A stretch of DNA of 16,721 nucleotides, from positions 1-16,721 of IMG/VR virus record IMGVR_UViG_2617270976_000017, one strand, 5' to 3'. The stretch's first letter is position 1, and every line of letters begins with the position of its first letter. Positions 1 through 16,472 of the stretch are shown here, one piece after another. Below the pieces are notes generated by a model. That model searched no databases. It had not been told where the DNA came from and saw only the letters and a list, made by a program, of their open reading frames with translations. The translations under genes and the position numbers were made by a program. Source of the DNA: a virus (Duplodnaviria; Heunggongvirae; Uroviricota; Caudoviricetes).

Positions 1-378
1 CCTGCTGACCATTGTCTGCATGATGTTCAGGATATGAGTACGATTAATCATCCCCGGGCTGACCTGAGCAAAGGGCAGTACGGCTGTGTCGGACAGGGCT
101 TACATATTGCCAAAAAACTGCTTCCGTATATCCCTAATAACGCGGGGATCCTGCTGGTACCATGCTGTCGTGGTGGTTCGGCATTCACCCAGGGCACGGA
201 GGGGACATTCAGCGAGTCCACGGGGGCCAGTCAGGATTCGGCTCGCTGGGGAGTGGGTAAGCCGTTATATCAGGATCTGCTTTTCCGCACGAAGGCAGCA
301 TTGCAGAAAAACCCGAAAAACGTTTTGCTGGCGATATGCTGGATGCAGGGGGAATTCGATATGACGAATGCCAGTTAG
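1..378 (+). CDS. 3' portion of a hypothetical prophage protein; reading frame is open from base 1, so probably 5'-truncated by the window edge
   Basis: Frame 1 has no stop from position 1 to TAG at 376-378; the ORF track starts it at ATG 34 only because that is the first Met. GC-rich like the phage backbone. No family recognised with confidence (a weak impression of an SGNH/esterase-like 'W-x-QGE-x-D' block, not verifiable here). Confidence 0.4.
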   Translation, partial: PADHCLHDVQDMSTINHPRADLSKGQYGCVGQGLHIAKKLLPYIPNNAGILLVPCCRGGSAFTQGTEGTFSESTGASQDSARWGVGKPLYQDLLFRTKAALQKNPKNVLLAICWMQGEFDMTNAS

Positions 379-587
379 TGCTGGTGAGCCTTGACGGGCT
401 GATCTCCTATGCAGCAAAGGTTCATCTCAAAGTAAGACGAACGCTATGACAAACCAAGATTCTATAGACCTATCTGATCTTCGTGGAATGGTCAGTTTTC
501 CAGACAAAAGGTAATCACCATAGTCGTATGGCTATGAATCTTGTTGCTGCAGATAAGCATTTTGTGATTGAAGTGGTCAAATCTCTC

Positions 588-644
588 AAATGCAGTAAAA
601 TGCAGTGCGCTATAATTCAATAACGGAGGGAGTAAGGAGAAGTC
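588..644 (+). promoter_or_regulatory. putative promoter/RBS region for the 645..1265 gene: tandem AAATGCAGT x2 (588-606), TATAAT (611-616), strong Shine-Dalgarno GGAGGG/AAGGAGA (625-640)
   Basis: Perfect -10 hexamer 29 nt upstream of ATG 645; double SD motif 5-15 nt upstream of the ATG; no convincing -35, so promoter call is weak. Confidence 0.3.
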
Positions 645-1265
645 ATGAAAGATCAAGATGTTAGGTTCGCGGTGCATCATAAGCTTTTGAAAGAATCGCA
701 TTTAGATCCAGACTGCCTTGTGGTCGATGAATTTTCCATATCCCTTGGCGCCAGTAGAGCAGACATTGCTGTAATAAATGGTGTTATACACGGGTACGAG
801 CTCAAAAGTGAATATGACTCTTTGGAGCGTTTGCCTCTTCAAATCAAGCATTATTCTTCTGTAATGGACAAGGTTACTCTTGTCGTAGCTGAGAAACACC
901 TTGAGGGAGCATTAAAGTTAATCCCAGGTTGGTGGGGCGTTAAAACGGTTTCTGTTGGGCCAAAAGGCGCCATTCTTATAAAGCACATGCGTGGAGAAAA
1001 GCTTAATCGAAACCATGACACATTGATGCTCGCTCAATTGCTTTGGAAAGATGAATGTATCGACGTACTTGAACGATGGGGCTATTCCAAAGGAATCAAA
1101 AGCAAGCCCCGATTTGAGTTATGGAATATTATTGCGGAAAATATTCCAATAGCGAATCTCAGGCTTGAAGTCAGAACAGCCTTAAAGAAACGCGTAGGCT
1201 GGAAAGTTAAGGCTTGGCAGGCTGAGTCTGCGCCAACCAATAAAGCTGTCTCACGACTAACGTAA
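645..1265 (+). CDS. hypothetical 206-aa protein with a PD-(D/E)xK-like nuclease signature (..RADIAVINGVIHGYELKSE..); accessory (moron) gene
   Basis: Long ORF with strong RBS; AT-richer than the flanking phage structural genes; Asp followed ~12 residues later by E-L-K in hydrophobic beta-strand-like context, as in restriction-endonuclease-fold proteins. Family assignment not possible without HMM search. Confidence 0.65.
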   Translation: MKDQDVRFAVHHKLLKESHLDPDCLVVDEFSISLGASRADIAVINGVIHGYELKSEYDSLERLPLQIKHYSSVMDKVTLVVAEKHLEGALKLIPGWWGVKTVSVGPKGAILIKHMRGEKLNRNHDTLMLAQLLWKDECIDVLERWGYSKGIKSKPRFELWNIIAENIPIANLRLEVRTALKKRVGWKVKAWQAESAPTNKAVSRLT

Positions 1266-2274
1266 TATGGTGCGTATGTGCAACTTTACGCCATTCTTTA
1301 GAGCCGCCAGATTTGTTAGCGCCTAATGATCTTTGGTAAATGTAATCATCCCCCCAACTAAATTTGGAGCCAAAGACTTGATACTCTGGCGAACTAACAA
1401 GGGTAGTACATAAGTTTTTAGTTTGGCCCCATCCATTTCCTTTAACTGCGGTACCTTTTACAAAGATCCATGAGGTATCGTTCGAATATCTCACTGAGAC
1501 ATACTGAGACATGAAGCGTGGGTCTACGCTCGTAATGGTAGAGCTAGCGGTGGGATAATCACTAAAACTTGGCGTTCTTCCATTGCTAAAATTCTGTACT
1601 ACGTACATCCAAAGATCGTATTCATGGCGCGGAATATGATGAACTTGATGTTGCGGTATCCCTGCCTGTGATGCCGGGTATGCGGTTGAAGATAAAATCA
1701 AGTTTCTCCACGGAGCTTGGCCTGATAATGTGTTGACCATGCTTAATGCTTGTTGTTTTAAACTATCAGTTGCGTTTTGAATATCTCCAAAATCAATGAT
1801 TACATCAATTAAACTAGGATGAATATTTAAGTGGTTAACCAGACTTGTGAATTGGTGCCATGTCTGGGGGGTGATAGATATAGCGAGCCCATTGATTAAG
1901 TTGCGTTGAACAGCATGTATATAGTTTGTTGAATATGCGGGAGAAACAACAGGGATAATTTCCTTACCATTTACTCTAGCATCTTGGATACACATATCTA
2001 GAGGATGATGGCGGCTCGAACCATGTTTATCTAAATATTTAACATCCAGCAAAACAGGACGATTGGCTTTCCAGGATGCCGCAAGGTTAATACCGAAGTC
2101 AGATAAGTAAGAACTCAAACTCTTCTTGTAGCATTCGTTTTCATAATCCCAGTCTATGTCTGGAATGGTAATGATCGGAGTAAAACCAGAGAGCGTAGTT
2201 TGATCTAAAAGCATCAGAGATTCATATTCAGCAGGCTTCCATTTCAGCTGTGGATAATATTGATGTTGACTCAT
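1207..2274 (-). CDS. hypothetical 355-aa protein, convergent to and overlapping the 3' end of 645..1265; accessory gene
   Basis: Long minus-strand ORF; ATG at 2274-2272 preceded by a perfect AAGGAG (complement of 2280-2285) with 5-nt spacing; same AT-rich composition as its neighbour. No recognisable lambda homolog. Confidence 0.65.
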   Translation of the reverse strand: MSQHQYYPQLKWKPAEYESLMLLDQTTLSGFTPIITIPDIDWDYENECYKKSLSSYLSDFGINLAASWKANRPVLLDVKYLDKHGSSRHHPLDMCIQDARVNGKEIIPVVSPAYSTNYIHAVQRNLINGLAISITPQTWHQFTSLVNHLNIHPSLIDVIIDFGDIQNATDSLKQQALSMVNTLSGQAPWRNLILSSTAYPASQAGIPQHQVHHIPRHEYDLWMYVVQNFSNGRTPSFSDYPTASSTITSVDPRFMSQYVSVRYSNDTSWIFVKGTAVKGNGWGQTKNLCTTLVSSPEYQVFGSKFSWGDDYIYQRSLGANKSGGSKEWRKVAHTHHITLVVRQLYWLAQTQPAKP

Positions 2275-2470
2275 TAAAACTCCTTAAAATCTTTACTTAT
2301 CCTAAGTATAGTGTTATGGCGTAACGCCAATTGTTTTTATACACTTGAAAACATTGGGAAAAGTTGAGCTATATCTAAATTTACAAAATTGGATGTTATA
2401 GAAATCGAGGTTTCAACTAGGCATGGAACTGCAAAATTTTTAATGCCTGCACGCGAAAGTCGTTGGCGGG

Positions 2471-2497
2471 TCCTTTCCGGTGATCCAGATCGTTACG
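2471..2497 (+). other. cosQ-like segment immediately upstream of cosN
   Basis: TCCTTTCCGGTGATCC...GTTACG matches my recollection of the last ~27 bases of the phage lambda genome (right end). Confidence 0.55.
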
Positions 2498-2509
2498 GGG
2501 CGGCGACCT
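2498..2509 (+). other. cosN: 12-nt cohesive-end sequence GGGCGGCGACCT
   Basis: Exact match to the lambda 12-nt cohesive end, followed by CTCGCGG(T)TTTTC-CTATTTATGAAAATTTT as at the lambda left end. Confidence 0.8.
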
Positions 2510-2684
2510 CGCGGTTTTTCACTATTTATGAAAATTTTTCAGGGAAAATCGTGTCGGTACTTCTCGAATATAACTTTTTGTTTTTTTTAATATTGCATTC
2601 ATAAATGTCCGACATGAAAGTGTCCGAAAATGCCTTTTTTTGGCGTTTTCATGTCGGGCCTTGTATTTGATAATGAGTTGTTCT
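2510..2684 (+). promoter_or_regulatory. cosB-like terminase binding region with three oppositely oriented core elements (TGTCGG at 2552-2557, CCGACA at 2609-2614, TGTCGG at 2652-2657) and an AT-rich segment between the first two
   Basis: Position between cosN and the Nu1 start, +/-/+ orientation and spacing (about +54, +111, +154 from cosN) mirror the lambda R3-I1-R2-R1 layout, but the element sequence differs from lambda's. Confidence 0.55.
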
Positions 2685-3233
2685 ATGAAGGTTAATAAAA
2701 AGAGGCTTGCCGAAATTTTTAACGTGGACCCGCGGACGATTGAACGCTGGCAGTCTCAGGGGCTCCCTTGCGTCTCCAAAGGCAGTAAGGGCATTGAATC
2801 TGTATTTGATACTGCCATGGCAATTCAGTGGTATGCGCAGAGGGAAACTGATATCGAAAACGAAAAGCTCCGCAAAGAACTGGCCGATTTGCGTGCGGCA
2901 GCGGAGTCAGATTTACAACCCGGCACCATTGACTATGAACGCTACCGGCTCACAAAAGCGCAGGCAGATGCGCAGGAACTGAAAAATGCCCGTGAAGACG
3001 GAGTGGTGCTGGAAACTGAACTATTTACCTTCATTCTGCAACGTGTGGCACAGGAGATTTCGGGGATACTTGTGCGTGTGCCGTTGACATTACAGCGTAA
3101 ATATCCGGACATTTCACCATCACACCTTGATGTGGTGAAAACTGAAATCGCGAAAGCCTCCAATGTTGCAGCTAAGGCCGGTGAAAACGTGGGCGGGTGG
3201 ATCGATGATTTCAGACGCACAGAAGGCAGCTAA
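2685..3233 (+). CDS. nu1: terminase small subunit (lambda Nu1 homolog)
   Basis: [12 protein letters not shown]...[12 protein letters not shown]...[49 protein letters not shown] aligns along its length with lambda gpNu1 as recalled. Start taken at ATG 2685 (the ORF track's 2640 uses an upstream TTG). Confidence 0.9.
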
Positions 3234-5133
3234 TGCAGCCGGTGCGATAGCTACAGGGCTTTTATCTCTCATTATTCCTGTTCCACTGACGACAGTTCAG
3301 TGGGCCAATAAACATTATTACCTTCCTAAAGAGTCGTCTTATACCCCGGGGCGGTGGGAAACACTGCCGTTTCAGGTTGGCATCATGAACTGTATGGGCA
3401 ACGATTTGATTCGCACTGTTAACCTGATTAAATCTGCCCGTGTTGGTTATACAAAGATGTTGCTGGGAGTGGAGGCTTATTTTATTGAGCATAAATCACG
3501 CAACAGCCTTCTTTTTCAGCCCACGGACTCAGCTGCTGAAGATTTTATGAAATCTCATGTTGAGCCAACGATAAGGGATGTTCCTGCATTGCTGGAGCTG
3601 GCTCCATGGTTCGGAAGAAAACACCGCGATAATACGCTCACCCTGAAGCGTTTTTCCTCCGGTGTGGGTTTCTGGTGTCTGGGGGGAGCGGCAGCAAAAA
3701 ACTACCGTGAAAAATCCGTGGATGTGGTTTGTTATGACGAGCTTTCCTCGTTCGAACCGGATGTTGAAAAAGAGGGTTCGCCAACCCTGCTGGGGGATAA
3801 ACGTATTGAGGGCTCTGTATGGCCAAAATCCATTCGCGGCTCGACGCCTAAAATCAAAGGCTCCTGCCAGATCGAAAAAGCCGCTAACGAGTCGGCACAT
3901 TTCATGCGTTTTTATGTGCCCTGTCCGCACTGTGGGGAGGAGCAGTATCTGAAATTTGGCGATGATGCCTCGCCTTTCGGTCTTAAGTGGGAGAAGAATA
4001 AGCCAGAAAGTGTTTTCTACCTTTGTGAGCATCATGGCTGTGTGATCCATCAGTCTGAGCTTGACCAGAGTAACGGGCGGTGGATCTGTGAAAACACGGG
4101 CATGTGGACTCGTGACGGTCTGACATTTTTCAGCGCCGCGGATAATGAAATTCCGCCGCCGCGCTCCATCACATTCCATATCTGGACGGCGTACAGTCCG
4201 TTCACCACCTGGGTACAGATTGTCTATGACTGGCTGGATGCACTGAAAGATCCCAACGGCCTGAAAACCTTTGTGAACACCACGCTGGGCGAGACCTGGG
4301 AAGAGGCCGTGGGCGAAAAACTCGATCACCAGGTGCTGATGGATAAGGTTGTGCGTTACACGGCTGCGGTGCCTTCCCGGGTGGTTTATCTGACGGCGGG
4401 CATTGACTCGCAGCGAAACCGTTTTGAGATGTATGTCTGGGGATGGGCTCCGGGAGAGGAAGCCTTTCTGGTGGATAAAATCATCATTATGGGGCGTCCC
4501 GATGAGGAAGAGACGCTGTTACGTGTGGATGTGGCGATCAACAAAAAATACCGCCATGCAGACGGAACCGAAATGACCATTTCCCGTGTCTGCTGGGACA
4601 CCGGGGGGATCGATGGCGAAATTGTCTATCAGAGGTCAAAAAAACACGGTGTTTTCCGGGTGCTGCCGGTAAAAGGTGCATCTGTTTATGGCAAGCCGGT
4701 GATCACCATGCCAAAAACCCGCAATCAGCGGGGCGTGTATCTGTGCGAAGTGGGGACGGACACCGCAAAAGAAATTCTCTATGCCCGTATGAAAGCCGAT
4801 CCCACGCCTGCGGATGAAGCCACGTCGTATGCCATCCGTTTTCCTGATGATCCGGAGATTTTTTCGCAGACAGAGGCGCAGCAACTGGTGGCGGAAGAGC
4901 TTGTGGAGAAGTGGGAAAAAGGAAAGATGCGTCTGCTGTGGGATAACAAAAAGCGGCGTAACGAAGCGCTGGACTGCCTGGTGTATGCCTACGCGGCATT
5001 ACGTGTGTCCGTGCAACGCTGGCAGCTTGATCTGGCTGTACTGGCAAAATCCCGGGAAGAAGAGACGACCCGGCCAACCCTTAAAGAACTGGCAGCGAAG
5101 CTGTCCGGAGGAGTGAATGGTTACAGTCGCTGA
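3205..5133 (+). CDS. A: terminase large subunit (lambda gpA homolog)
   Basis: Strong colinear similarity to lambda gpA ([24 protein letters not shown]..., [33 protein letters not shown]..., [10 protein letters not shown]...). Start placed at ATG 3205 (MISDAQ...), overlapping the Nu1 3' end as in lambda. Confidence 0.95.
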
Positions 5134-5323
5134 ACTGCAGGCGCTGCGTCAGGCGCGCCTTGATTTATTAACCGGTAAACGGGTGGTGTCTGTCCAGAAA
5201 GATGGTCGCAGAATTGAATATACGGCAGCTTCTCTGGATGAGCTTAACCGGGCGATCAATGATGCGGAGTCGGTACTGGGGACAACCCGCCGTCGCCGTC
5301 GTCCGCTGGGAGTGAGGTTATGA
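5117..5323 (+). CDS. W: head-tail joining / head completion protein (lambda gpW homolog, 68 aa)
   Basis: 68-aa ORF with LLTGKRVVSVQKDGRRIEYTA core matching lambda gpW; overlaps A stop and B start (ATGA) as in lambda. Confidence 0.9.
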   Translation: MVTVAELQALRQARLDLLTGKRVVSVQKDGRRIEYTAASLDELNRAINDAESVLGTTRRRRRPLGVRL

Positions 5324-7029
5324 AACGAACGCCTGTCCTGATTGATGTGAACGGCGTTCCGCTTCGGGAGAGCCTCAGCTACAACGGTGGCGGTGCAGGA
5401 TTTGGCGGGCAAATGGCAGAGTGGTTGCCACCCTCGCAGAGTGCCGATGCGGCCCTGCTGCCCGCGTTGCGTCTGGGGAATGCCCGTGCAGATGATCTGG
5501 TGCGCAATAACGGAATAGCGGCCAATGCGGTGGCCCTGCATAAGGATCACATTGTCGGGCATATGTTTCTGATTAGCTACCGTCCGAACTGGCGCTGGCT
5601 GGGGATGCGGGAGACCGCGGCAAAAAGTTTTGTCGATGAGGTGGAGGCGGCCTGGTCAGAATACGCAGAAGGGATGTTTGGTGAGATCGACGTGGAAGGG
5701 AAACGCACGTTTACGGAATTTATCCGTGAAGGTGTGTGCGTTCATGCGTTTAACGGCGAAATCTTTGTGCAGCCGGTCTGGGATACGGAGAGTACGCAAC
5801 TGTTTCGTACGCGTTTTAAAGCCGTGAGTCCGAAACGGGTGGACACGCCAGGACACGGTATCGGGAACCGTTTTCTGCGGGCCGGTGTGGAGGTTGATCG
5901 ATATGGCCGTGCCGTTGCGTACCATATCTGTGAGGATGATTTTCCTCGCTCCGGGAGTGGACGATGGGAACGGATCCCGCGTGAACTACCCACCGGGCGT
6001 CCGGCCATGCTGCATATTTTCGAGCCGGTGGAGGACGGGCAGACCCGTGGAGCCAATCAGTTTTACAGCGTTATGGAACGGCTGAAGATGCTCGATTCCC
6101 TGCAGGCAACACAGCTTCAGTCGGCCATAGTGAAGGCGATGTATGCAGCGACGATTGAAAGTGACCTTGATACCGAAAAGGCCTTTGAATATATCGCCGG
6201 TGCGCCGCAGGGGCAGAAGGATAATCCGCTTATTAATATTCTGGATAAGTTCTCCACCTGGTATGACACGAATAGCGTGACGCTGGGCGGTGTCAAAATT
6301 CCGCACCTTTTCCCCGGTGATGATCTGAAACTTCAGACCGCGCAGGATTCAGACAATGGATTTTCGGCGCTTGAACAGGCGCTGCTGCGGTATATCGCCG
6401 CCGGTCTTGGCGTTTCCTACGAACAGTTGTCCCGTGATTACTCGAAGGTCAGTTACTCAAGTGCCCGCGCATCCGCCAATGAGTCGTGGCGCTATTTTAT
6501 GGGGCGGCGAAAATTTATTGCGTCCCGGCTGGCCACGCAGATGTTTTCCTGCTGGCTGGAAGAGGCACTTCTTCGGGGGATTATTCGTCCGCCACGGGCA
6601 CGGTTTGATTTTTATCAGGCGCGATCAGCCTGGTCACGGGCTGAGTGGATTGGAGCCGGAAGAATGGCCATTGACGGGCTCAAGGAGGTTCAGGAATCAG
6701 TGATGCGCATTGAGGCCGGACTGAGCACGTATGAGAAAGAGCTGGCGCTGATGGGCGAGGATTATCAGGACATTTTCCGCCAGCAGGTCAGGGAATCTGC
6801 AGAGCGGGAAAAAGCCGGACTCTCACGTCCGGTGTGGATAGCGCAGGCGTATCAGCAGCAGATAGCGGAGAGTCGCAGGCCGGAAGAGGAGACAGTCGCG
6901 GATGAATATGACCAGCCGACGTCCGATATCACGAAGGATAAATGCAGCAAATGCCTGAGCGGCTGTAAGTTTCGCAATAACGTCGGCAACTTTGGCGGCT
7001 TCCTTTCCATTAACAAACTTTCGCAGTAA
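5320..7029 (+). CDS. B: portal protein (lambda gpB homolog) whose last codons are replaced by an in-frame fusion to the 3' end of tail gene L
   Basis: Residues 1-~525 colinear with lambda gpB (GGGAGFGGQ..., FEPVEDGQTRGANQFYSVME..., LRYIAAGLGVSYEQLSR...); the final 44 residues VADEYDQPTSDITKDKCSKCLSGCKFRNNVGNFGGFLSINKLSQ match the C-terminus of lambda gpL. Confidence 0.85.
   Translation: MKRTPVLIDVNGVPLRESLSYNGGGAGFGGQMAEWLPPSQSADAALLPALRLGNARADDLVRNNGIAANAVALHKDHIVGHMFLISYRPNWRWLGMRETAAKSFVDEVEAAWSEYAEGMFGEIDVEGKRTFTEFIREGVCVHAFNGEIFVQPVWDTESTQLFRTRFKAVSPKRVDTPGHGIGNRFLRAGVEVDRYGRAVAYHICEDDFPRSGSGRWERIPRELPTGRPAMLHIFEPVEDGQTRGANQFYSVMERLKMLDSLQATQLQSAIVKAMYAATIESDLDTEKAFEYIAGAPQGQKDNPLINILDKFSTWYDTNSVTLGGVKIPHLFPGDDLKLQTAQDSDNGFSALEQALLRYIAAGLGVSYEQLSRDYSKVSYSSARASANESWRYFMGRRKFIASRLATQMFSCWLEEALLRGIIRPPRARFDFYQARSAWSRAEWIGAGRMAIDGLKEVQESVMRIEAGLSTYEKELALMGEDYQDIFRQQVRESAEREKAGLSRPVWIAQAYQQQIAESRRPEEETVADEYDQPTSDITKDKCSKCLSGCKFRNNVGNFGGFLSINKLSQ
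6895..7029 (+). pseudogene. L: 3' remnant of tail tip gene L (last ~44 codons) fused to B
   Basis: C-terminal gpL sequence including the Cys-rich CSKCLSGC block; immediately followed by K as in lambda gene order L-K-I-J. Confidence 0.7.
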
Positions 7030-7033
7030 TCCC

Positions 7034-7777
7034 ATGACAGAGACAGAATCAGCGATTCTGGCGCACGCCCGGCGATGTGCGCCAGCGGAGTCGTGCGGCT
7101 TCGTGGTGAGAGCGCCGGAGGGGGAAAGATATTTCCCCGGCGTGAATATCTCCGGTGAGCCGGAGGATTATTTCCGTATGTCGCCGGAAGACTGGCTGCA
7201 GGCAGAAATGCAGGGTGAGATTGTGGCGCTGGTCCACAGCCACCACGGTGGTCTGCCCTGGCTGAGTGAGGCCGACCGGCGGCTGCAGGTGCAGAGTGAT
7301 TTGCCGTGGTGGCTGGTCTGCCGGGGGACGATTCACAAGTTCCGCTGTGTGCCGCATCTCACCGGGCGGCGCTTTGAGCACGGGGTGACGGACTGTTACA
7401 CGCTGTTCCGGGATGCTTATCATCTGGCGGGGATTGAGATGCCGGATTTTCATCGCGGGGATGACTGGTGGCGTCACGGTCAGAATCTCTATCTGGATAA
7501 TCTGGAAGCCACAGGGCTGTATCAGGTGCCGTTGTCATCAGCACAACCGGGCGATGTGCTGCTGTGCTGCTTTGGTTCATCGGTGCCGAATCATGCCGCC
7601 ATTTACTGTGGTGACGGCGAGCTGCTGCACCATATTCCTGAACAACTGAGCAAACGAGAGAGGTATACCGACAAATGGCAGCGACGCACACACTCCCTCT
7701 GGCGTCACCAGGCATGGCACGCATCTGCCTTTACGGGGATTTACAACGATTTGGCCGCCGCATCGATCTGCGTGTGA
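7034..7777 (+). CDS. K: tail assembly protein K (lambda gpK homolog)
   Basis: MTETESAILAHARRCAPAESCGFVV...HSHH... ORF; overlaps I by ~100 nt as K and I do in lambda. An internal Met at 7178 corresponds to the shorter classical K annotation. Confidence 0.85.
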   Translation: MTETESAILAHARRCAPAESCGFVVRAPEGERYFPGVNISGEPEDYFRMSPEDWLQAEMQGEIVALVHSHHGGLPWLSEADRRLQVQSDLPWWLVCRGTIHKFRCVPHLTGRRFEHGVTDCYTLFRDAYHLAGIEMPDFHRGDDWWRHGQNLYLDNLEATGLYQVPLSSAQPGDVLLCCFGSSVPNHAAIYCGDGELLHHIPEQLSKRERYTDKWQRRTHSLWRHQAWHASAFTGIYNDLAAASICV

Positions 7778-8316
7778 AAACGGGGGCCGAAGCCATCCGG
7801 GCGCTGGCCATGCAGATCCCGGCGTTTCGTCAGAAGCTGAGCGACGGCTGGTATCAGGTACGCATTGCCGGGCGTGATACAGGTGAAACGGAATTATCAG
7901 CCCGTCTTAATGAACCGCTGGCAAATGGTGCTGTGATCCATATCGTGCCGCGTCTGGCAGGAGCCAAAAGTGGCGGTGTGTTTCAGGCTGTGCTGGGGGC
8001 GGCTGTTATGGCGGTTGCTATATGGATGCCGGGGGTAGGAATTATGGCGAGTAATCTGCTGTTTTCTCTCGGTGCCAGTATGACGCTTGGCGGTGTTGCA
8101 CAGATGCTGGCCCCTAAACCCAAAACCCCCCGCACACAGACAACGGATAACGGCAAACAGAACACCTATTTCTCTTCACTGGATAACATGGTTGCCCAGG
8201 GCAATGTTCTGCCTGTTCTGTACGGTGAAATGCGCGTGGGGTCACGTGTGGCATCTCAGGAGATCAGCACGGCAGATGAAGGGGATGGTGGTCAGGTTGT
8301 GGTAATTGGGCGGTAA
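7675..8316 (+). CDS. I: tail assembly protein I (lambda gpI homolog)
   Basis: MAATHTLPLASPGMARICLYGDLQRFGRRIDLRVKTGAEAIRALA... and C-terminal ...NVLPVLYGEMRVGSRV.SQEISTADEGDGGQVVVIGR match lambda gpI. Confidence 0.9.
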   Translation: MAATHTLPLASPGMARICLYGDLQRFGRRIDLRVKTGAEAIRALAMQIPAFRQKLSDGWYQVRIAGRDTGETELSARLNEPLANGAVIHIVPRLAGAKSGGVFQAVLGAAVMAVAIWMPGVGIMASNLLFSLGASMTLGGVAQMLAPKPKTPRTQTTDNGKQNTYFSSLDNMVAQGNVLPVLYGEMRVGSRVASQEISTADEGDGGQVVVIGR

Positions 8317-8388
8317 TATTATTTACTCATGTTCTAACTGATTTAATATTTATATCGAACACTGATAATTATTCTATTGGTTAGCTAT

Positions 8389-8727
8389 ATGAACAAAACG
8401 ATTTTATTCTGCACGATTATTGCCTTAACAGGATGTAAATCTTTGGATTACGTAAAATCCGGAAAACCTGTAATGGAAGGTAATTCATTAAAAAATATTG
8501 ATGAATTGTCAGGCTGCATATCCAGACAATGGGCTGGTAATGGAACACCTATAACATCCCTTCCTATTGAGAATGGGGTAAGCCTTTTAGTTCCACAGGC
8601 TATGGGGGGATATGATGTTGTGCTTGATATCAAAAAAGCAGGAAATGGCAGTAGTTTTACTCTTTATGAACGTGTACCAGCATTAACGCCAAAAATTTTT
8701 GCTGATAGTGTTAATGCATGTAAATAA
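8389..8727 (+). CDS. small predicted lipoprotein (signal peptide MNKTILFCTIIALTG-C, lipobox LTGC); accessory gene inserted between I and J
   Basis: ORF with N-terminal hydrophobic segment ending in L-T-G-C; markedly AT-rich relative to flanking I and J; followed by a hairpin terminator. Start placed at ATG 8389; weak RBS. Confidence 0.6.
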   Translation: MNKTILFCTIIALTGCKSLDYVKSGKPVMEGNSLKNIDELSGCISRQWAGNGTPITSLPIENGVSLLVPQAMGGYDVVLDIKKAGNGSSFTLYERVPALTPKIFADSVNACK

Positions 8728-8750
8728 TAGTTAATCCTGCTGTAACTCAT

Positions 8751-8780
8751 GAGCCGCCTTTTGGGCGGCTTTGTTGTTTA
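8751..8780 (+). terminator. rho-independent terminator-like hairpin (GAGCCGCC-TTTT-GGGCGGCT) plus T-rich tail
   Basis: 8-bp GC-rich stem (one mismatch) with 4-nt loop followed by TTGTTGTTT, directly after the lipoprotein stop. Confidence 0.55.
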
Positions 8781-8793
8781 TGGAGTGTGAGGA

Positions 8794-10186
8794 ATGGGTA
8801 AAGGAAGCAGTAAGGGGCATACCCCGCGCGAAGCGAAGGACAACCTGAAATCCACGCAATTACTGAGTGTGATCGATGCCATCAGCGAAGGGCCGATTGA
8901 AGGTCCGGTGGATGGATTAAAAAGCGTGCTGCTGAACAGTACACCGGTGCTGGACAGTGAGGGGAATACCAACATCTCCGGTGTCACGGTGGTGTTCCGG
9001 GCAGGTGAGCAGGAGCAGACACCGCCGGAGGGATTTGAATCCTCCGGTTCCGAGACGGTGCTGGGTACGGAAGTGAAATACGACACGCCGATCACCCGGA
9101 CCATCACGTCTGCAAACATCGACCGTCTGCGCTTTACCTTCGGTGTGCAGGCTCTGGTGGAAACCACCTCAAAGGGGGACCGGAATCCGTCGGAAGTCCG
9201 CCTGCTGGTTCAGATACAACGTAACGGTGGCTGGGTGACGGAAAAAGACATCACCATTAAGGGCAAAACCACCTCGCAGTATCTGGCCTCGGTGGTGGTG
9301 GGTAACCTGCCGCCGCGCCCGTTTAATATCCGGATGCGCAGAATGACGCCGGACAGCACCACAGACCAGCTGCAGAACAAAACGCTCTGGTCGTCATACA
9401 CCGAAATCATCGATGTGAAACAGTGCTATCGGTGCCGGTATTGAGAATACGCCAGCAGGAATGCAGAGTCAGGTGCTGCTGGCGGCAGACAGGATTGCGA
9501 TGATTAATCCTGCGAATGGCAACACAAAGCCGATGTTTGTTGGTCAGGGCGATCAGATATTTATGAATGAAGTGTTCCTGAAATATCTGACGGCTCCCAC
9601 CATTACCAGCGGCGGTAATCCTCCGGCATTTTCCCTGACACCGGACGGGCGGCTGACGGCGAAAAATGCCGATATCAGCGGTAACGTGAATGCGAACTCC
9701 GGGACGCTCAACAACGTCACGATTAACGAGAACTGTCGGGTTCTGGGAAAATTGTCCGCGAACCAGATTGAAGGCGATCTCGTTAAAACAGTGGGCAAAG
9801 CTTTCCCCCGGGACTCCCGTGCACCGGAGCGGTGGCCATCAGGAACCATTACCGTCAGGGTTTATGACGATCAGCCGTTTGACCGGCAGATTGTTATTCC
9901 GGCGGTGGCATTCAGCGGCGCTAAACATGAGAAAGAGCATACTGATATTTACTCCTCATGCCGTCTGATAGTGCGGAAAAACGGTGCTGAAATTTATAAC
10001 CGTACCGCGCTGGATAATACGCTGATTTACAGTGGTGTTATTGATATGCCTGCCGGTCACGGTCACATGACACTGGAGTTTTCGGTGTCAGCATGGCTGG
10101 TAAATAACTGGTATCCCACAGCAAGTATCAGCGATTTGCTGGTTGTGGTGATGAAGAAAGCCACTGCAGGCATCACGATTAGCTGA
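8794..10186 (+). pseudogene. J: tail tip/host specificity gene J, disrupted: N-terminal ~210 codons (8794..9444) joined out of frame to the C-terminal ~240 codons (9461..10186); central ~2 kb missing
   Basis: 8794..9444 matches lambda gpJ residues 1-~212 nearly residue for residue and then stops (..VKQCYRCRY*); 9461..10186 in another frame matches the gpJ C-terminal region (..[32 protein letters not shown]..) with a divergent extreme C-terminus. Confidence 0.8.
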
Positions 10187-10204
10187 ATTTTATAACCCAG
10201 ATAC

Positions 10205-10230
10205 GGGCGCCAGAAATGGCGCCTTTTTTA
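10205..10230 (+). terminator. rho-independent terminator-like hairpin (GGGCGCC-AGAAAT-GGCGCC) followed by TTTTTTA
   Basis: 6/7-bp GC stem, 6-nt loop, T6 tract, just after the J stop. Confidence 0.55.
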
Positions 10231-10253
10231 TTGCAGAAAAGCGAGAGGTAATT

Positions 10254-10853
10254 ATGCGTAAATTATGTGCTGTTATTTTGTCCGCAGTAGTCTGGCAGGT
10301 CGCCGCTGCTACGCCAGCGAGTGCAGCAGAACATCAGTCCACGCTGAGCGCGGGGTATCTCCATGCCTCGACGAACGTTCCCGGTAGTGATGATCTGAAC
10401 GGGATTAACGTGAAATACCGTTATGAGTTTACGGACGCGCTGGGGCTGATTACGTCCTTCAGTTATGCCAATGCTGAGGATGAGCAAAAAACGCGCTACA
10501 GCGATACCCGCTGGCATGAAGATTCCGTGCGTAACCGCTGGTTCAGCGTGATGGCGGGGCCGTCTGTACGCGTGAATGAATGGTTCAGCGCGTATGCGAT
10601 GGTGGGTGTGGCTTACAGCCGTGTGTCGACTTTCTCCGGGGATTATCTCCGCGTAACTGACAACAAGGGGAAAACGCACGATGTGCTGACCGGAAGTGAT
10701 GACGGTCGCCACAGCAACACGTCTCTGGCGTGGGGGGCTGGCGTGCAGTTTAATCCGACCGAATCCGTGACCATTGACCTTGCTTATGAAGGTTCCGGTA
10801 GTGGCGACTGGCGAACGGATGCATTTATTGTTGGTATCGGATACCGTTTCTGA
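10254..10853 (+). CDS. lom: outer membrane beta-barrel protein Lom (Ail/Lom/PagC family)
   Basis: Signal-peptide-like N-terminus, alternating beta-strand pattern, C-terminal ...GIGYRF; position between J and stf as in lambda. Confidence 0.85.
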   Translation: MRKLCAVILSAVVWQVAAATPASAAEHQSTLSAGYLHASTNVPGSDDLNGINVKYRYEFTDALGLITSFSYANAEDEQKTRYSDTRWHEDSVRNRWFSVMAGPSVRVNEWFSAYAMVGVAYSRVSTFSGDYLRVTDNKGKTHDVLTGSDDGRHSNTSLAWGAGVQFNPTESVTIDLAYEGSGSGDWRTDAFIVGIGYRF

Positions 10854-10958
10854 CAACAGACGCCGATTTATCTTCTGTAAATATTGTTATGATACGCAGG
10901 TTCATCCACCTTATGGGGTGAACTGCGTTTGAGGAAACGTAAAGTTACACTGTCCTGA

Positions 10959-10990
10959 AGCCCGTGGCGTCACTGCTGCGGGCTTTTTTT
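10959..10990 (+). terminator. terminator-like stem (AGCCCG...CGGGCT) followed by T7 tract
   Basis: 6-bp stem with a long (14-nt) loop and TTTTTTT immediately downstream; loop is long, so call is weak. Confidence 0.4.
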
Positions 10991-11004
10991 ATTGGTGGAA
11001 AAGT

Positions 11005-13911
11005 ATGACAGTAAAAATTTCTGGCGTGCTTAAAGATGGCACAGGAAAACCAGTACAGAACTGCACCATTGTGCTGAAGGCCAGACGAACCAGCAGCACG
11101 GTGGTGGTGAACACGGTGGCCTCTGAAAATCCGGATGAAGCCGGACGTTACAGCATGGATGTTGAGCATGGTCAGTACAGCGTCACCCTGCTGGTTGAAG
11201 GTTTTCCGCCTTCACATGCCGGGACCATTACCGTCTATGAAGGTTCCAGACCAGGTACGCTGAATGATTTTCTCGGTGCCATGACGGAGGATGATGTCCG
11301 ACCGGAGGCACTGCGCCGCTTTGAGCAGATGGTAGAAGAGGTGTCACGTAACGCCTCCGCGGTTGCACAGAATACGGCAGCCGCGAAAAAATCAGTCAGC
11401 GATGCCAGTGCATCAGCCAGCGAGGCGGCAACTCATGCAACCGATGCTGCAGCCTCAGCACGTGCCGCCAGCACGTCAGCCGGACAGGCCGCGTCGTCGG
11501 CTCAGTCAGCGTCTTCCAGCGCAGGAACGGCATCGACAAAGGCCCGTGAAGCAGCAAAAAGTGCTGCTGCTGCAGAGTCATCAAAAAGCGCGGCAGCTAC
11601 CAGCGCCAGTGCCGCGAAAACGTCAGAAACGAATGCCGCAGCATCACAAAAATCGGCAGCCACTTCTGCATCCACAGCGACCACGAAGGCGTCAGAAGCT
11701 GCCACCTCGGCACGGGGTGCGGCGGCCTCAAAAGAGGCAGCGAAATCTTCAGAAACGAATGCATCATCAAGTGCCAGTAGTGCAGCTTCCTCGGCAACGG
11801 CGGCAGGAAATTCCGCGAAGGCGGCAAAAACGTCCGAGACGAACGCTAAGTCTTCTGAAACAGCAGCGGGACAGAGCGCCTCAGCTGCGGCAGGTTCAAA
11901 AACAGCGGCTGCATTATCTGCCAGTGCCGCGTCAACAAGTGCCGGGCAGGCCTCAGCCAGTGCCACCGCCGCCGGAAAATCGGCAGAAAGCGCCGCATCA
12001 TCCGCTTCAACAGCCACAACGAAGGCTGGCAAAGCCACTGAGCAAGCCACTGCAGCAGCGAGGTCTGCTTCTGCAGCAAAAACCTCTGAAACAAATGCAA
12101 AGACTTCAGCAGACAATGCTGCTTCCTCTAAGGCGGCAGCCGCATCGTCAGCCAGTTCAGCGGCGTCATCGGCATCATCTGCGTCTGCTTCAAAAGATGA
12201 GGCGACCAGACAAGCGTCAGCAGCGAAAGGTAGTGCCACGACAGCAACAACGAAAGCATCAGAGGCAGCTGGTAGTGCGACGGCGGCAGCTCAGAGCAAA
12301 AGTACGGCGGAATCCGCGGCAACGCGCGCCGAGACAGCAGCAAAACGGGCAGAGGATATTGCATCCGCCGTGGCGCTGGAGGATGCGAGCACGACGAAAA
12401 AGGGGATAGTACAGCTCAGCAGTGCGACCAACAGCACTTCCGAGTCACTGGCGGCAACGCCAAAAGCGGTTAAGGCGGTAATGGGTGAAACGAACAAGAA
12501 AGCGCCCTTAAATAGTCCTGCACTGACCGGAACGCCAACAACACCAACTGCGCGACAGGGAACGAATAATACCCAAATCGCAAGCACGGCTTATGTTATG
12601 GCTGCGATCGCTGCCCTCGTGGACTCGTCGCCTGACGCACTGAATACGCTGAACGAGCTGGCTGCGGCGTTGGGCAACGACCCGAATTTTGCGACCACCA
12701 TGACTAGCGCGCTTGCGGGTAAGCAACCGAAAGATGCCACCCTGACGGCGCTGGCCGGGCTTGCTACTGCGGCAGACAGGTTTCCGTATTTTACGGGGAA
12801 TGATGTTGCCAGTCTGGCAATCCTGACAAAAGTTGGGCGGGATATTCTTGCGAAATCGACCGTTGCCGCCGTTATCGAATACCTCGGTTTACAGGAAACG
12901 GTAAACAAGGCTGGTAACGCCGTTCAGCGTTCCGGCGATAAAATGACCGGAGAACTGAAAATTGGCACGGTGAATGCGCTGCGAATTTTCAATGATGCCT
13001 TCGGTCTTATTTTCCGTCGTTCAGAAGATTTTCTTCATTTCATTCCGACGGCTGAAGGACAAGGCGAAAACGGTGATATCGGCCCATTAAGGCCATTCGC
13101 TATAAATCTGAGAACAGGTGCTATATCTGTCAGCCACGGGGCCAAAATTGATGGTGGGCTGGCGCTTGGTACAGATAACGCACTGGGCGGTAATTCCATT
13201 ACTCTCGGAGATAACGACACTGGTATTAAACAGGGCGGCGACGGTGTCCTTTTATTCTATTCAAATGGACAACTGGCATTTGGGCTTCAACCCGCATCTG
13301 CTGATTTTTATAAGCGGGTTGCATATATTCATCAGGGAATAATTCCTGATGGAAGTGGCGCATTTGCAGACCAGTTGAATAATGCCACCGCGCCTTTTGT
13401 TCAGACGCAGTTTGCCTGGAATCCCACTCCTGGTGGTCATTACGTGCCGATAGTTAAGGGCTTGTCCATTCGCAATGGACAGGGCTATCCCGGCGCGGTC
13501 AGCTTTGGGTATTTACTGACAGAACAGTATGGATTTCCGGTTCCATGTATTCATATGCGTGGCGATGGAGGTAATGATGCTTTATGGTATTTTAACCCGA
13601 ACGATAAATCCTTTATTTCACCGGGTGCTCTTATTGCGGGTGGCGTCCGTTATAACACCGATGGAAATATATTTGGTGGGTGCTGGGGTTCAAACTTAAA
13701 TGATTACCTGAATAGTTCTTTTATCAGAAATGTGCGTCTGGGAGGCAGACGTTCTGACACATTATATCGCGGAGGACTTTGCGAACCAGGTAATGGTCAT
13801 GTGACAACAGGATTGCAAATTATTGGTGAGGTTGATGGAGATGACTGGATGGTGTCACGACCACTACAAAAATACATTTCTGGTAACTGGTATAACGTTG
13901 AACAGGCATAG
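11005..13911 (+). CDS. stf: side tail fibre protein (Stf family), 968 aa, with Ala/Ser-rich repetitive shaft
   Basis: N-terminus MTVKISGVLKDGTGKP.QNCTIVLKARRTSSTVV and ...YSVTLLVEGFPPSHAGTITVYE match the conserved Stf N-domain; long A/S-rich repeat region; C-terminal tip ...PLQKYISGNWYNVEQA. Confidence 0.9.
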   Translation: MTVKISGVLKDGTGKPVQNCTIVLKARRTSSTVVVNTVASENPDEAGRYSMDVEHGQYSVTLLVEGFPPSHAGTITVYEGSRPGTLNDFLGAMTEDDVRPEALRRFEQMVEEVSRNASAVAQNTAAAKKSVSDASASASEAATHATDAAASARAASTSAGQAASSAQSASSSAGTASTKAREAAKSAAAAESSKSAAATSASAAKTSETNAAASQKSAATSASTATTKASEAATSARGAAASKEAAKSSETNASSSASSAASSATAAGNSAKAAKTSETNAKSSETAAGQSASAAAGSKTAAALSASAASTSAGQASASATAAGKSAESAASSASTATTKAGKATEQATAAARSASAAKTSETNAKTSADNAASSKAAAASSASSAASSASSASASKDEATRQASAAKGSATTATTKASEAAGSATAAAQSKSTAESAATRAETAAKRAEDIASAVALEDASTTKKGIVQLSSATNSTSESLAATPKAVKAVMGETNKKAPLNSPALTGTPTTPTARQGTNNTQIASTAYVMAAIAALVDSSPDALNTLNELAAALGNDPNFATTMTSALAGKQPKDATLTALAGLATAADRFPYFTGNDVASLAILTKVGRDILAKSTVAAVIEYLGLQETVNKAGNAVQRSGDKMTGELKIGTVNALRIFNDAFGLIFRRSEDFLHFIPTAEGQGENGDIGPLRPFAINLRTGAISVSHGAKIDGGLALGTDNALGGNSITLGDNDTGIKQGGDGVLLFYSNGQLAFGLQPASADFYKRVAYIHQGIIPDGSGAFADQLNNATAPFVQTQFAWNPTPGGHYVPIVKGLSIRNGQGYPGAVSFGYLLTEQYGFPVPCIHMRGDGGNDALWYFNPNDKSFISPGALIAGGVRYNTDGNIFGGCWGSNLNDYLNSSFIRNVRLGGRRSDTLYRGGLCEPGNGHVTTGLQIIGEVDGDDWMVSRPLQKYISGNWYNVEQA
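11350..12370 (+). repeat. intragenic tandem-repeat region of stf encoding the Ala/Ser-rich shaft (recurring ..AAKTSETNA.. units)
   Basis: Repeated nucleotide blocks such as gcgaaaacgtcagaaacgaatgc / gcaaaaacgtccgagacgaacgc / gcaaaaacctctgaaacaaatgc recur at ~11615, ~11745, ~11825, ~12075. Confidence 0.6.
12872..12897 (+). other. 26-bp recombination (crossover) site of a Gin/Pin/Cin/Hin-type inversion system, inside stf
   Basis: TTATCGAATACCTCGGTTTACAGGAA closely resembles the gix/pix-type crossover sites as I recall them and is an inverted copy (22/26) of the site at 15951..15976. Confidence 0.65.
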
Positions 13912-13926
13912 CCATCAGGAGAATAT

Positions 13927-14454
13927 ATGCAACATCTGAAAAATATTACCGCCGGAAACCCCAAAACCATTGAGCAGTATCAGCTTACGAAAAAAGCTGG
14001 CGTTATCTGGCTATATACAGAAGACGGTAAAAACTGGTATGACGAATTAAAAAACTTTCAGGATGATACTTTAAAAATAGCTTATGACCAGAAGGGGATT
14101 ATTCGTTGTATTGAGAAAGACGTATCAATGCTTAACCCTGACGGGTTAAGTGTTGTTGAGTTACCGAATATAACAGCCAACCGTCGCGCCGATATCTCGG
14201 GAAACTGGAAGTTTCTGGATGGTAAAGTAGTAAAGCGGGAATATACAAAACAGGAACTGCAACAGCAGGCAGAGTTACAAAAAGCCGCTTTGCTTTCCGA
14301 AGCGGAGTCTGTGATTCAACCGCTGGAACGTGCTGTCAGACTGAATATGGCAACTGATGAGGAACGCACACGACTGGAATCATGGGAACGCTACAGCGTT
14401 ATGGTCAGCCGTGTGGATACTGCAAAGCCTGAATGGCCACAGAAACCAGAATAA
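13927..14454 (+). CDS. tfa: tail fibre assembly protein (Tfa family)
   Basis: 175-aa ORF directly after stf with good RBS (CAGGAGA); N-terminal half matches the conserved Tfa pattern and is paralogous to the inverted ORF at 14485..15018. Confidence 0.85.
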
Positions 14455-14465
14455 CAACAAATTAA

Positions 14466-14485
14466 GGCCCGTACGGGCCTTTTCT
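14466..14485. terminator. bidirectional terminator hairpin (GGCCCG-TA-CGGGCC) between the convergent tfa genes
   Basis: Perfect 6-bp GC stem with T-rich flanks on both strands, located between the stop codons of the two convergent tfa genes. Confidence 0.5.
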
Positions 14486-15018
14486 TATTCTGGTGGTTCC
14501 GGGAATGTTACAGGAAGAACCGAGGTATCAGTTGTCTCAACCTGTTGCACGTATCGCATCCAGTTCATCAGTTGCTGTCTGTCTGAATCAGTGATAATCC
14601 CCAAAGTAAGCTGTGTTTGCCAGAACTGCGTTTTTTCTCTGGCCTGCTGTAATAATATTTTTTTCTGGTTTTCCGTCTGTAGGCGCAACTCTTCTTCGGT
14701 ATATACACGTTTAATGACTGCGCCATCTTTAAACATCCATTTACCTGAGTCGTCAGCACGCCGGTTGGCGGTAATATCAGGAATCTCAACGACGCTATAA
14801 CCTTCAGGGTTAAGTGTGGAGGCATCTTTGGTTATGGCAACAATAATATTATTTTCATCGTAAACAATCTTTATGGTGTCTGGCTGAAAGTTTTTCACTT
14901 CCTCATACCAGTTTTTTCCGTCCTCAGAGTAAAGCCAGATAACTCCGTGTTTCTTTGTTAACTCATACTGTTCCAGTGTTTTAGCATTACCCGCTTTTAT
15001 GTTCTTTAAGTGCATCAT
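14485..15018 (-). CDS. tfa: tail fibre assembly protein, second copy in inverted orientation (Tfa')
   Basis: [45 protein letters not shown]... is clearly paralogous to the + strand Tfa ([45 protein letters not shown]...). Confidence 0.85.
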
Positions 15019-15019
15019 A

Positions 15020-15523
15020 TTAAACGCTCGCTACATTATACCAGGTGCCATTTATATACTTTTGAACGGGTCTGTAATAAACGCCCGCTATATTATCGGC
15101 AGAGTTAGACCCTGTATCCTGAACATTAATACCAGACAATACATGACCTGAAGGGCACTGGAAATTCCATGTTTGCCAGTTGTTCACTCCATAATATTGC
15201 TGTGAACCAAGTCGAACATCTTTCACATAACGGGAATCAAAGTTACCGTAATCCGAGGGGTTAACACGCCCTGTAATATTTATGGTTTTATTACTTTGAA
15301 TGCTTCCGGAGACAAAGCGCATAACATGGACGTTATTAGCATAAACATCCAGATTACCATCGCCATTTTGTTTAAAGCCCGTGTCATTATCACCCAATAC
15401 AATCGAATTACCGCCAAGAGCACTGGATGTTCCGATACCCAGTGCACCATTCAGTTGACCACCAGATAACGGCAGTGATAGAAACAGAAGCCACTGGAGC
15501 ACCTCAAAAACACCATCATACAC
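15020..15523 (-). CDS. stf: alternative side tail fibre C-terminal (receptor-binding) segment, inverted orientation (StfE-like fragment)
   Basis: Contains ..[22 protein letters not shown].. and C-terminal ..[16 protein letters not shown], paralogous to the stf tip (..ALGGNSITLGDNDTGIKQGGDG.. / ..PLQKYISGNWYNVEQA); stop abuts tfa' start. Confidence 0.75.
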
Positions 15524-15587
15524 TAAATCAGTAAGTTGGCAGCATCACCCACGGGCTGAACGATAAAAAATACCGCCATTTTTATAA

Positions 15588-15962
15588 TTAATCCAAAAAC
15601 TGAGCTGCAGGACAACTTCCTTCTCCCATATAAAAATGAATAATTAACGTTGATGCACCACTAATAGTTGCGTTATAGGCTCCGCTACTCCAGTTCCATC
15701 CAACTGCTTTATCATTCGCAACGGTGCTTCCTGTTTTCCCTAAGGCAAACGCACCAACATGACTTGCTTTTAATGTGATATCGGAGGAACCATCAAAAGC
15801 CACATTGCTTATTTTCCTGGCAGTTTTTAATTTTGCAGCTGTAGAAGCATTGCCGGATAGTTCACCAGAAAGGCCACCGCTGAATGTTTGTCGATTAGTC
15901 CAGGTATTCGCTGTACTGAGTAACGGTATTTTCTCCCCGCTTGTGCCGAGTTCTCGTAAACC
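15588..15962 (-). pseudogene. proximal part of the alternative stf variable segment, in frame with the crossover site but separated from the distal part (15020..15523) by stops in all frames
   Basis: Reading the minus strand from the crossover site at 15962 gives an open frame (GLRELGTSGEKIPLL...GSCPAAQFLD) ending at TAA 15588-15590; the downstream tip ORF is in a different frame. Confidence 0.45.
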
Positions 15963-15976
15963 GAGGTTTTAGATAA
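15951..15976 (+). other. second 26-bp crossover site, inverted relative to 12872..12897
   Basis: TTCTCGTAAACCGAGGTTTTAGATAA; its reverse complement TTATCTAAAACCTCGGTTTACGAGAA matches the stf-internal site at 22/26 positions with an identical central ACCTCGGTTTAC core. Confidence 0.65.
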
Positions 15977-16030
15977 TGGCGGTTTCTGGCCTGCATGGCA
16001 TGATTTGTGCTTTTGGACGGGAGATTCAGC

Positions 16031-16436
16031 GTGCTGATTGGCTATGTAAGGGTATCAACAAATGACCAGAATACAGATCTGCAACGAAACGCTCTTGTTT
16101 GTGCAGGATATGAACAAATATTTGAAGATAAATTAAGCGGAACAAGGACAGGCCGACCTGGATTAAAACGTGCTTTAAAGCGCCTTCAAAAAGGTGACGC
16201 ACTGGTTGTCTGAAAACTGGACTGACTGGTTCACTGTATGCGGCATCTTGTCGTGCTGGTGGTGGAAGCCTAGAAAAAGTATCGGGTGTTGCTGAACCGT
16301 GTTGATACATCAACTGCACCTGATATTGAGTGGCCTACGAACCCTGTCAGGGAGTAATCATTGGGATTATGCCGCAGCACGTCTTAAGCAAGAACGTGCT
16401 GCGGTTGGATGGTGAACTTTCGATAGTGCGAGTATT
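16031..16436 (+). pseudogene. pin: Pin/Gin/Cin/Hin-family serine DNA invertase, inactivated (first ~60 codons intact, then multiple in-frame stops)
   Basis: VLIGYVRVSTNDQNTDLQRNALVCAGYEQIFEDKLSGTRTGRPGLKRALKRLQKGDALVV matches the invertase N-terminus including the catalytic Ser context; TGA at 16211-16213 falls where a Trp is expected, followed by further stops while residual similarity (..MRHLVVLVVE.., ..RVDTST..) persists. 3' end approximate. Confidence 0.65.
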
Positions 16437-16472
16437 GAATGATTTCCAGCCGTTACCGATTTTACGTGTTAA

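What the first reader, a model, noticed from the sequence alone, without database searches (positions are those of the whole stretch)
5320..7034. In-frame portal-L fusion marks a roughly 10-kb deletion of head and tail-shaft genes
The portal ORF tracks lambda gpB to about residue 525 and then continues directly into the last ~44 residues of gpL (..VADEYDQPTSDITKDKCSKCLSGCKFRNNVGNFGGFLSINKLSQ), with K starting 5 bp later. Junction is near 6890-6897. In lambda the genes C, Nu3, D, E, FI, FII, Z, U, V, G, T, H, M and most of L lie between these points, so the prophage cannot build capsids or tail shafts. The fusion keeps an open frame and would produce a chimeric portal carrying the Cys-rich gpL tail (three of its cysteines).
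Basis: partly seen in the sequence, partly recalled or inferred. Interest (0 to 1): 0.6.

Follow-up and report, generated by a model that had tools for sequence, protein, structure and literature searches.

The report
Deletion scar in a decaying prophage
A defective lambda-like virus embedded in one E. coli strain has lost about 9.8 kb of head and tail genes, which by accident welded its portal gene in frame to the last 44 codons of tail gene L; this is ordinary prophage decay.

Summary
ORF 5320..7029 (569 aa) consists of residues 1-525 of a 530-aa phage-21-type portal, the homologue of lambda gpB. These are joined in frame to residues 189-232 of gpL, which match lambda and phage 21 at 44/44. 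The junction is 6894|6895, with a 2-bp microhomology (CA). K starts at 7034.

Compared with phage 21, 9,782 bp are missing; compared with the E. coli 042 prophage, 9,835 bp. The missing genes are C, Nu3, D, E, FI, FII, Z, U, V, G, T, H, M and the 5' 564 nt of L. Relatives 99.9-100% identical to either flank have a normal 530-aa portal followed by C, and a full-length L. So the tail is not a native portal extension.

The junction was found in one NCBI contig (JNQT01000033.1; protein WP_072005640.1) and one Logan assembly. It is absent from 5,426 complete E. coli genomes and from three other collections.

The same prophage carries two more microhomology deletions. One removed the lysis cassette (3,007 bp). 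The other is a 2,087-bp frameshifting deletion inside J. Close relatives carry other, independent deletions.

The fusion keeps only two of gpL's four Fe-S cysteine ligands. I read it as an accidental by-product of illegitimate recombination in a cryptic prophage. Interest is low.

The parts
5320..7029 (+). Chimeric ORF of 569 aa (WP_072005640.1): portal residues 1-525 plus gpL residues 189-232, ending at L's own TAA stop
5320..6894 (+). Portal (phage-21-type gpB homologue) gene, first 1,575 of 1,593 nt. The last 5 codons (TPRET) and the stop are lost, as is the overlapping start of C
6893..6894 (+). Deletion junction: 2-bp microhomology CA shared by the parental portal (..GAGACA|ACACC) and L (..CCGGCA|GTCGC) sequences
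6895..7029 (+). 3' remnant of tail-tip gene L (44 codons plus stop). It holds Cys205, Cys208 and Cys212 of gpL but lacks Cys173 and Cys182
7034..7777 (+). Tail-tip assembly gene K (JAB + NlpC/P60), intact, with one private change P71H
2685..5323 (+). Retained left arm upstream of the fusion: Nu1 (2685-3233), terminase A (3205-5133), W (5117-5323). Phage 21 position 1 (cos) aligns to window 2498
7714..10186 (+). Retained right arm: I (7714-8316), a 112-aa ORF (8389-8727), and J broken into two frames (8794-9444 and 9461-10186) by a 2,087-bp internal deletion at 9427/9428
372..377 (+). Scar of a separate 3,007-bp deletion (6-bp microhomology CAGTTA). It removed the 3' part of the SASA esterase gene, holin, ydfR, lysozyme and Rz

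Best explanation
The feature is the scar of a single intra-prophage deletion of about 9.8 kb in a phage-21-like lambdoid prophage of one E. coli isolate (assembly GCA_000704325.1). Illegitimate, microhomology-level recombination (2 bp, CA) joined nucleotide 1,575 of the portal gene to nucleotide 565 of L. This removed C, Nu3, D, E, FI, FII, Z, U, V, G, T, H, M and the 5' 564 nt of L. The two reading frames happened to coincide, so the portal ORF now runs through 44 gpL codons to L's own stop. The element is a cryptic prophage in an advanced state of decay. It has also lost its lysis cassette and the middle of J. On its own it cannot make capsids, tail tubes or a working tail tip. If the chimeric protein is made at all, it has no assembly partners and carries an incomplete Fe-S site; I infer that it has no function. 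Shown here: the anatomy, the junction, the parental states, and the restriction to one strain. Inferred: the recombination mechanism, the order of events, and the lack of function.
For: DNA on each side of 6894|6895 matches different genes that lie about 9.8 kb apart in intact phages. Relatives that are 99.9% identical on the left (L019, L022, L023) continue from ...GAGACA into ACACCACGTGAGACG, that is, portal codons TPRET and then C, D, E ... H. Relatives that are 99.96% identical on the right (L013, L016) have T, H, M and a full 232-aa L upstream of the same bases. L012 carries both flanks (window 375-5860 and 9427-15477) at 99.96-100% in one prophage, so the two sides belong to one lineage. 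The other two lesions in the window have the same signature: 6-bp and 2-bp microhomologies. Close relatives show further independent deletions: A'-'J, B'-'J, A'-'lom, V'-'J and B'-FII. The exact protein occurs on one NCBI contig and one Logan contig only. The junction is absent from 5,426 complete E. coli genomes, GTDB representatives, IMG/VR and JGI metagenomes. The fragment lacks gpL Cys173 and Cys182, two of the four Fe-S ligands. Defective lambdoid prophages with morphogenesis-gene defects are well documented (PMC2669165).
Against: Nothing contradicts it. Open points remain. Expression was not tested. I could not establish whether the two assemblies that contain the junction come from the same reads. 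The contig's right end (DinI-btsS) differs from the ompW-yciE site of the nearest relatives, so this strain's prophages have undergone at least one further rearrangement. An inter-prophage origin of the junction is therefore not formally excluded.
Confidence: 0.9

Rival explanations
1. Illegitimate recombination between two different resident lambdoid prophages, giving a chromosomal deletion or inversion, created the junction, rather than a deletion within one prophage.
For: The contig's right end is of the mlrA/yehV-btsS type (tfa-DinI-btsS, as in 306 complete genomes). The body of the element is near-identical to prophages sitting at ompW-yciE. So prophage-prophage exchange has happened in this lineage.
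Against: Both sides of the junction are 99.9-100% identical to a single prophage lineage and occur together in L012. Gene order and orientation are exactly those of a simple internal deletion.
Confidence: 0.06
2. The join is an assembly artefact: a chimeric contig.
For: The window is the first 16.7 kb of a draft contig that starts inside a repeated prophage gene. E. coli genomes carry many similar lambdoid prophages, with a median of 3 places matching this stretch per genome.
Against: Two different assemblies (NCBI JNQT01000033.1 and Logan SRR1186598_454) contain the junction at 100% identity over 3.6 kb. The portal and L share no repeat that could mislead an assembler, only 2 bp.
Confidence: 0.02
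3. The 44-residue tail is a native or selected feature, and the chimera is a domesticated protein. For example, it could be a defective portal that poisons head assembly of superinfecting phage-21/lambda-type phages.
For: The frame is open. The portal domain is complete. The upstream genes Nu1, A and W are intact. Native L-K spacing is kept.
Against: It is found in one strain only. Being in frame is a 1-in-3 chance. Neighbouring genes are decaying. The portal part has a private nonsynonymous change, G140C, and K has P71H. Close relatives show unrelated deletions with no recurrence of this join.
Confidence: 0.02

Closest known systems
Phage 21 portal (gp4/CPT_21_04) and lambda gpB; Pfam PF05136 Phage_portal_2
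   Same: Residues 1-525 are 97.5% identical to the phage 21 portal and 61% to lambda gpB. The profile match is full-length, and the position after Nu1-A-W is the same.
   Different: The last five residues (TPRET) are replaced by 44 residues of gpL. The downstream partner genes (C protease/scaffold, D, E) are gone.
Lambda gpL tail-tip protein (PF05100), [4Fe-4S] protein
   Same: The last 44 residues are identical to gpL 189-232.
   Different: Only 19% of the protein is present. Two of the four cluster ligands (Cys173, Cys182) and the whole hub domain are missing.
Defective lambdoid prophages of E. coli, e.g. the Sp prophages of O157 Sakai (PMC2669165)
   Same: A chromosomal lambdoid prophage with multiple deletions in morphogenesis and lysis genes. 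Related copies in other strains carry different lesions.
   Different: Only the particular break points differ. Here one of them happens to give an in-frame portal-L chimera.
Intact prophage of E. coli 042 at ompW-yciE (NC_017626.1 1424660-1448500)
   Same: Same gene order and 96-99% identity across Nu1-B and L-stf, including the 112-aa ORF between I and J.
   Different: 042 keeps the 9,835 bp between B and L, the full 1,159-aa J and the lysis cassette.

Membership tests
Lambda-family portal protein (PF05136) | Full-length match to the family profile above the curated cut-off | tested here: met
   335.8 bits against a cut-off of 32.9; profile positions 2-354 of 354
Lambda-family portal protein (PF05136) | Native C-terminus, and the C (protease/scaffold) gene overlapping the 3' end as in phage 21 and lambda | tested here: not met
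   TPRET and the stop are replaced by gpL codons, and the start of C is deleted
gpL tail-tip protein (PF05100) | Complete Phage_tail_L domain | tested here: not met
   Only profile positions 161-206 of 206 are present
gpL tail-tip protein (PF05100) | Four cysteines that coordinate the [4Fe-4S] cluster (Cys173, 182, 205, 212; PMC10721106) | tested here: not met
   Only Cys205 and Cys212, plus the non-ligand Cys208, are retained
Defective (cryptic) lambdoid prophage | Essential morphogenesis genes are missing that are present in collinear intact relatives | tested here: met
   C through M and most of L are absent, compared with phage 21, 042 and L019/L013
Defective (cryptic) lambdoid prophage | Further inactivating lesions in other modules | tested here: met
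   The lysis cassette is deleted (3,007 bp) and J has a 2,087-bp frameshifting deletion
Defective (cryptic) lambdoid prophage | Integrated in a bacterial chromosome | tested here: met
   The contig continues into btsS-btsR-yehS-yehR-yehQ (L014)
Phage satellite or tailocin-like domesticated module | A coherent, intact subset of structural genes able to build a particle or a tail | tested here: not met
   There are no capsid, tube, tape-measure or M genes; J is broken and lysis genes are lost

The most novel reading that the evidence does not exclude
The chimeric portal-gpL protein is expressed from the late operon when a related phage infects or is induced. It then co-assembles with wild-type phage-21/lambda-type portal subunits and poisons their head assembly, so the deletion scar acts as an accidental superinfection-interference factor.
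Probability: 0.02. Interest if true: 0.5.

Novelty: already known. Interest (0 to 1): 0.1.

Why it matters
It matters little on its own. It is a clean, base-resolved example of how lambdoid prophages are inactivated by short-microhomology deletions. It is also an annotation caution: WP_072005640.1 is named 'phage portal protein' in the database although it is a portal-gpL chimera from a deletion. The wider pattern is of modest use for studies of prophage decay rates. Near-clonal copies of one prophage carry at least six different deletions in the same gene cluster across strains. The phenomenon itself is well known.

Tried and rejected
I searched for the exact junction (32-mer) in GTDB species representatives, IMG/VR and JGI metagenomes; all three scans found nothing. 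Megablast of the junction region against 5,426 complete E. coli genomes found no record spanning it. An exact look-up of K, meant to obtain an intact parent covering both break points, found K on this contig alone because of a private P71H change. I looked for longer homology or a repeat at the break points and found only 2 bp. I considered a deletion hot spot at the 3' end of the portal gene, because B-JRPT-4119 breaks 54 nt upstream. I rejected it because other relatives break at portal nt 541, in A, or in V. I did not run structure prediction or the large protein searches; the DNA-level evidence is decisive and they would add nothing.

Full report
**Observation**

The window has an ORF at 5320..7029 (569 aa). 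Pfam finds a complete Phage_portal_2 domain (residues 29-397, E 4e-100). It also finds a match to only the last 46 of 206 positions of Phage_tail_L (residues 525-567, E 1.8e-12).

Megablast against 50,697 phage records splits the stretch cleanly. Window 5320-6894 matches portal genes: 99.4% to PhiR12_1 and 96-97.5% to phage 21. Window 6893/6895-7034 matches the 3' end of L and the start of K at 100% (ev207, cdtI, 2B8).

At protein level:
- Residues 1-525 match the PhiR12_1 portal at 522/525 and the phage 21 portal at 512/525.
- The same stretch is 61% identical to lambda gpB residues 7-527.
- Residues 526-569 match gpL 189-232 of lambda, phage 21 and ev207 at 44/44.

The stop TAA is at 7027-7029 and K's ATG is at 7034. 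The only qualification is that the portal is phage-21-type rather than lambda's own.

**Junction**

The parental portal sequence reads ...GGAAGAGGAGACA|ACACCACGTGAGACG. This encodes codons TPRET and a stop, with the start of C overlapping. The parental L sequence in the nearest relatives reads ...CACGGTCCGGCA|GTCGCGGATGAA. The window reads ...GGAAGAGGAGACA|GTCGCGGATGAA.

The break is at 6894|6895, with a 2-bp overlap (CA) and no longer homology. Codon phase is preserved: E-E-E-T|V-A-D-E.

The DNA missing is 9,782 bp relative to phage 21 (OL657228 positions 4399-14180) and 9,835 bp relative to the E. coli 042 prophage. In phage 21, lambda, 042 and near-identical relatives this interval holds C, Nu3, D, E, FI, FII, Z, U, V, G, T, H, M and the first 564 nt of L.

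**Is the tail native to the portal?**

No. Contigs L019, L022 and L023 are 99.76-99.89% identical to window 372-6894 (seven differences over 6,523 nt for L019). They have a 530-aa portal followed by C, D, E, FI, FII, Z, U, V, G, T and H. Contigs L013 and L016 differ from window 6893-9428 at a single base. They have T, H, M, a full 232-aa L, K, I and an intact 1,159-aa J. L012 carries both flanks of the junction (window 375-5860 and 9427-15477) at 99.96-100% in one prophage. The simplest history is a deletion inside one prophage.

**Distribution**

The exact 569-aa protein is WP_072005640.1, named 'phage portal protein [Escherichia coli]'. It is recorded on one NCBI contig (JNQT01000033.1 of GCA_000704325.1; the window is positions 3-16723 of that contig). 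It also appears on one Logan contig assembled from SRR1186598, which is 100% identical over 3,602 bp across the junction.

No record among 5,426 complete E. coli genomes spans the junction. A 32-mer across it is absent from GTDB representatives, IMG/VR and JGI metagenomes. The lesion is strain-specific as far as public data show. Two assemblers agree, and there is no repeat at the break, so an assembly artefact is unlikely.

**Context: a decaying prophage**

The same element has two more deletions.
- At 372-377, 3,007 bp present in AST198, E100341 and L019-L023 are missing. This removed the 3' part of the SASA/DUF6645 esterase gene, the holin, ydfR, the lysozyme and Rz. The junction has a 6-bp microhomology, CAGTTA.
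- At 9427/9428, 2,087 bp of J are missing, with a 2-bp microhomology (TA). The remainder is split into two frames, 8794-9444 and 9461-10186.

Relatives of the lineage carry other, independent deletions in the same gene cluster:

| Relative | Deletion |
|---|---|
| L011 | A' joined to J nt 766 |
| L012, L015 | portal nt 541 joined to J nt 2318 |
| E100341 | A' joined to 'lom (4-bp microhomology) |
| AST198 (more distant) | V' joined to 'J |
| B-JRPT-4119 (more distant) | portal nt 1521 joined to FII |

L011 and L012 keep J segments that the window lacks, so they do not derive from the window's state. The two private base changes seen against the nearest relatives are both nonsynonymous: portal G140C and K P71H. 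That fits relaxed constraint, but two changes are too few to weigh.

**Mechanism and consequence**

Shown here: one illegitimate-recombination event with 2-bp microhomology removed about 9.8 kb and fused two frames.

Inferred: the open frame is accidental (a 1-in-3 chance) and the product has no function.
- The portal lacks its protease/scaffold and capsid partners.
- The gpL fragment keeps Cys205, 208 and 212 but lacks Cys173 and Cys182. The cryo-EM structure of the lambda tail tip identifies Cys173, 182, 205 and 212 as the [4Fe-4S] ligands (PMC10721106). Only half the site is therefore present.

On its own the element cannot make heads, tail tubes or a working tip, and it has no lysis genes. 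Nu1, A, W and the region that aligns with the phage 21 cos end (window 2498 onward) are retained. Complementation or packaging in trans by other resident lambdoid prophages is conceivable; this has been documented for O157 Sakai (PMC2669165). It was not tested here.

**Comparison with the known, and novelty**

This is a standard defective lambdoid prophage. Membership in the portal family is met for the domain but not for the native C-terminus or the downstream context. Membership in the gpL family is not met, because only a fragment is present. A satellite- or tailocin-like reading fails because no coherent structural set remains. The phenomenon is already known. The only new element is the particular junction, and the database name of its product hides that.

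**Verdict**

Interest is 0.1. The most novel reading not excluded is an assembly-poisoning chimeric portal, to which I give about 2%.

Noticed in passing
window 372-377: Scar of a 3,007-bp deletion (6-bp microhomology CAGTTA) that removed the 3' part of the SASA esterase gene and the whole lysis cassette (holin, ydfR, lysozyme, Rz). L012 and L015 have a different junction that shares exactly the same right end (TTA|GTGCTGGTGAGCC), but their left end is 747 bp further right. This suggests either sequential deletions or a preferred break site.
   Followed up: partly
window 9427-9428 (J fragments 8794-9444 and 9461-10186): A 2,087-bp out-of-frame deletion inside the tail-tip gene J (2-bp microhomology TA). 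It leaves an N-terminal FNIII-A fragment and a C-terminal receptor-binding fragment in different frames.
   Followed up: yes
window 645-2274 (645-1265 +, 1207-2274 -): A convergent, overlapping gene pair between the lysis region and cos: sce7726/P4-cII-like plus Beta_protein (PF14350). It hits the PADLOC models cll, beta and PD-Lambda-2_C, so it is a candidate anti-phage defence moron. It is conserved in the relatives, including the heavily deleted ones.
   Followed up: partly
window 8389-8727: A 112-aa ORF with no Pfam or PADLOC hit, inserted between I and J. The 491-bp stretch is present in 338 of 5,426 complete E. coli genomes (100% identical in strain 042). It has no blastn match in the 50,697-record phage collection.
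   Followed up: partly
window 13927-16213: A tail-fibre inversion cassette: tfa (13927-14454), an inverted second tfa (14485-15018) and an inverted alternative fibre C-end. The C-end is broken into 15020-15523 and 15588-15803, whereas relatives have one 261-aa ORF. The resolvase/invertase is truncated to 68 aa (16007-16213), so the switch is probably frozen.
   Followed up: partly
window 16411-16721 and L014 15400-22907: Right of 16411 the contig runs DinI, then btsS(yehU)-btsR-yehS-yehR-yehQ. This is the right end typical of prophages at the mlrA/yehV site (306 complete genomes). The near-identical relatives instead continue methyltransferase-ompW'-yciE-trp. The element looks like a recombinant between prophages at two chromosomal sites, or a mosaic.
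   Followed up: partly
L011, L012, L015, L001, L005, L006 (relatives): Copies of this prophage lineage, several of them near-clonal, carry at least five other independent deletions in the morphogenesis cluster: A'-'J, B'-'J, A'-'lom, V'-'J and B'-FII. Where I examined the junctions, they had short microhomologies. This makes a compact natural series of prophage decay.
   Followed up: partly
L021 8575-9411: One otherwise intact relative (GCA_949768265.1) has an IS1 insertion between the Beta_protein gene and Nu1, at the position equivalent to window 2532-2539.
   Followed up: no
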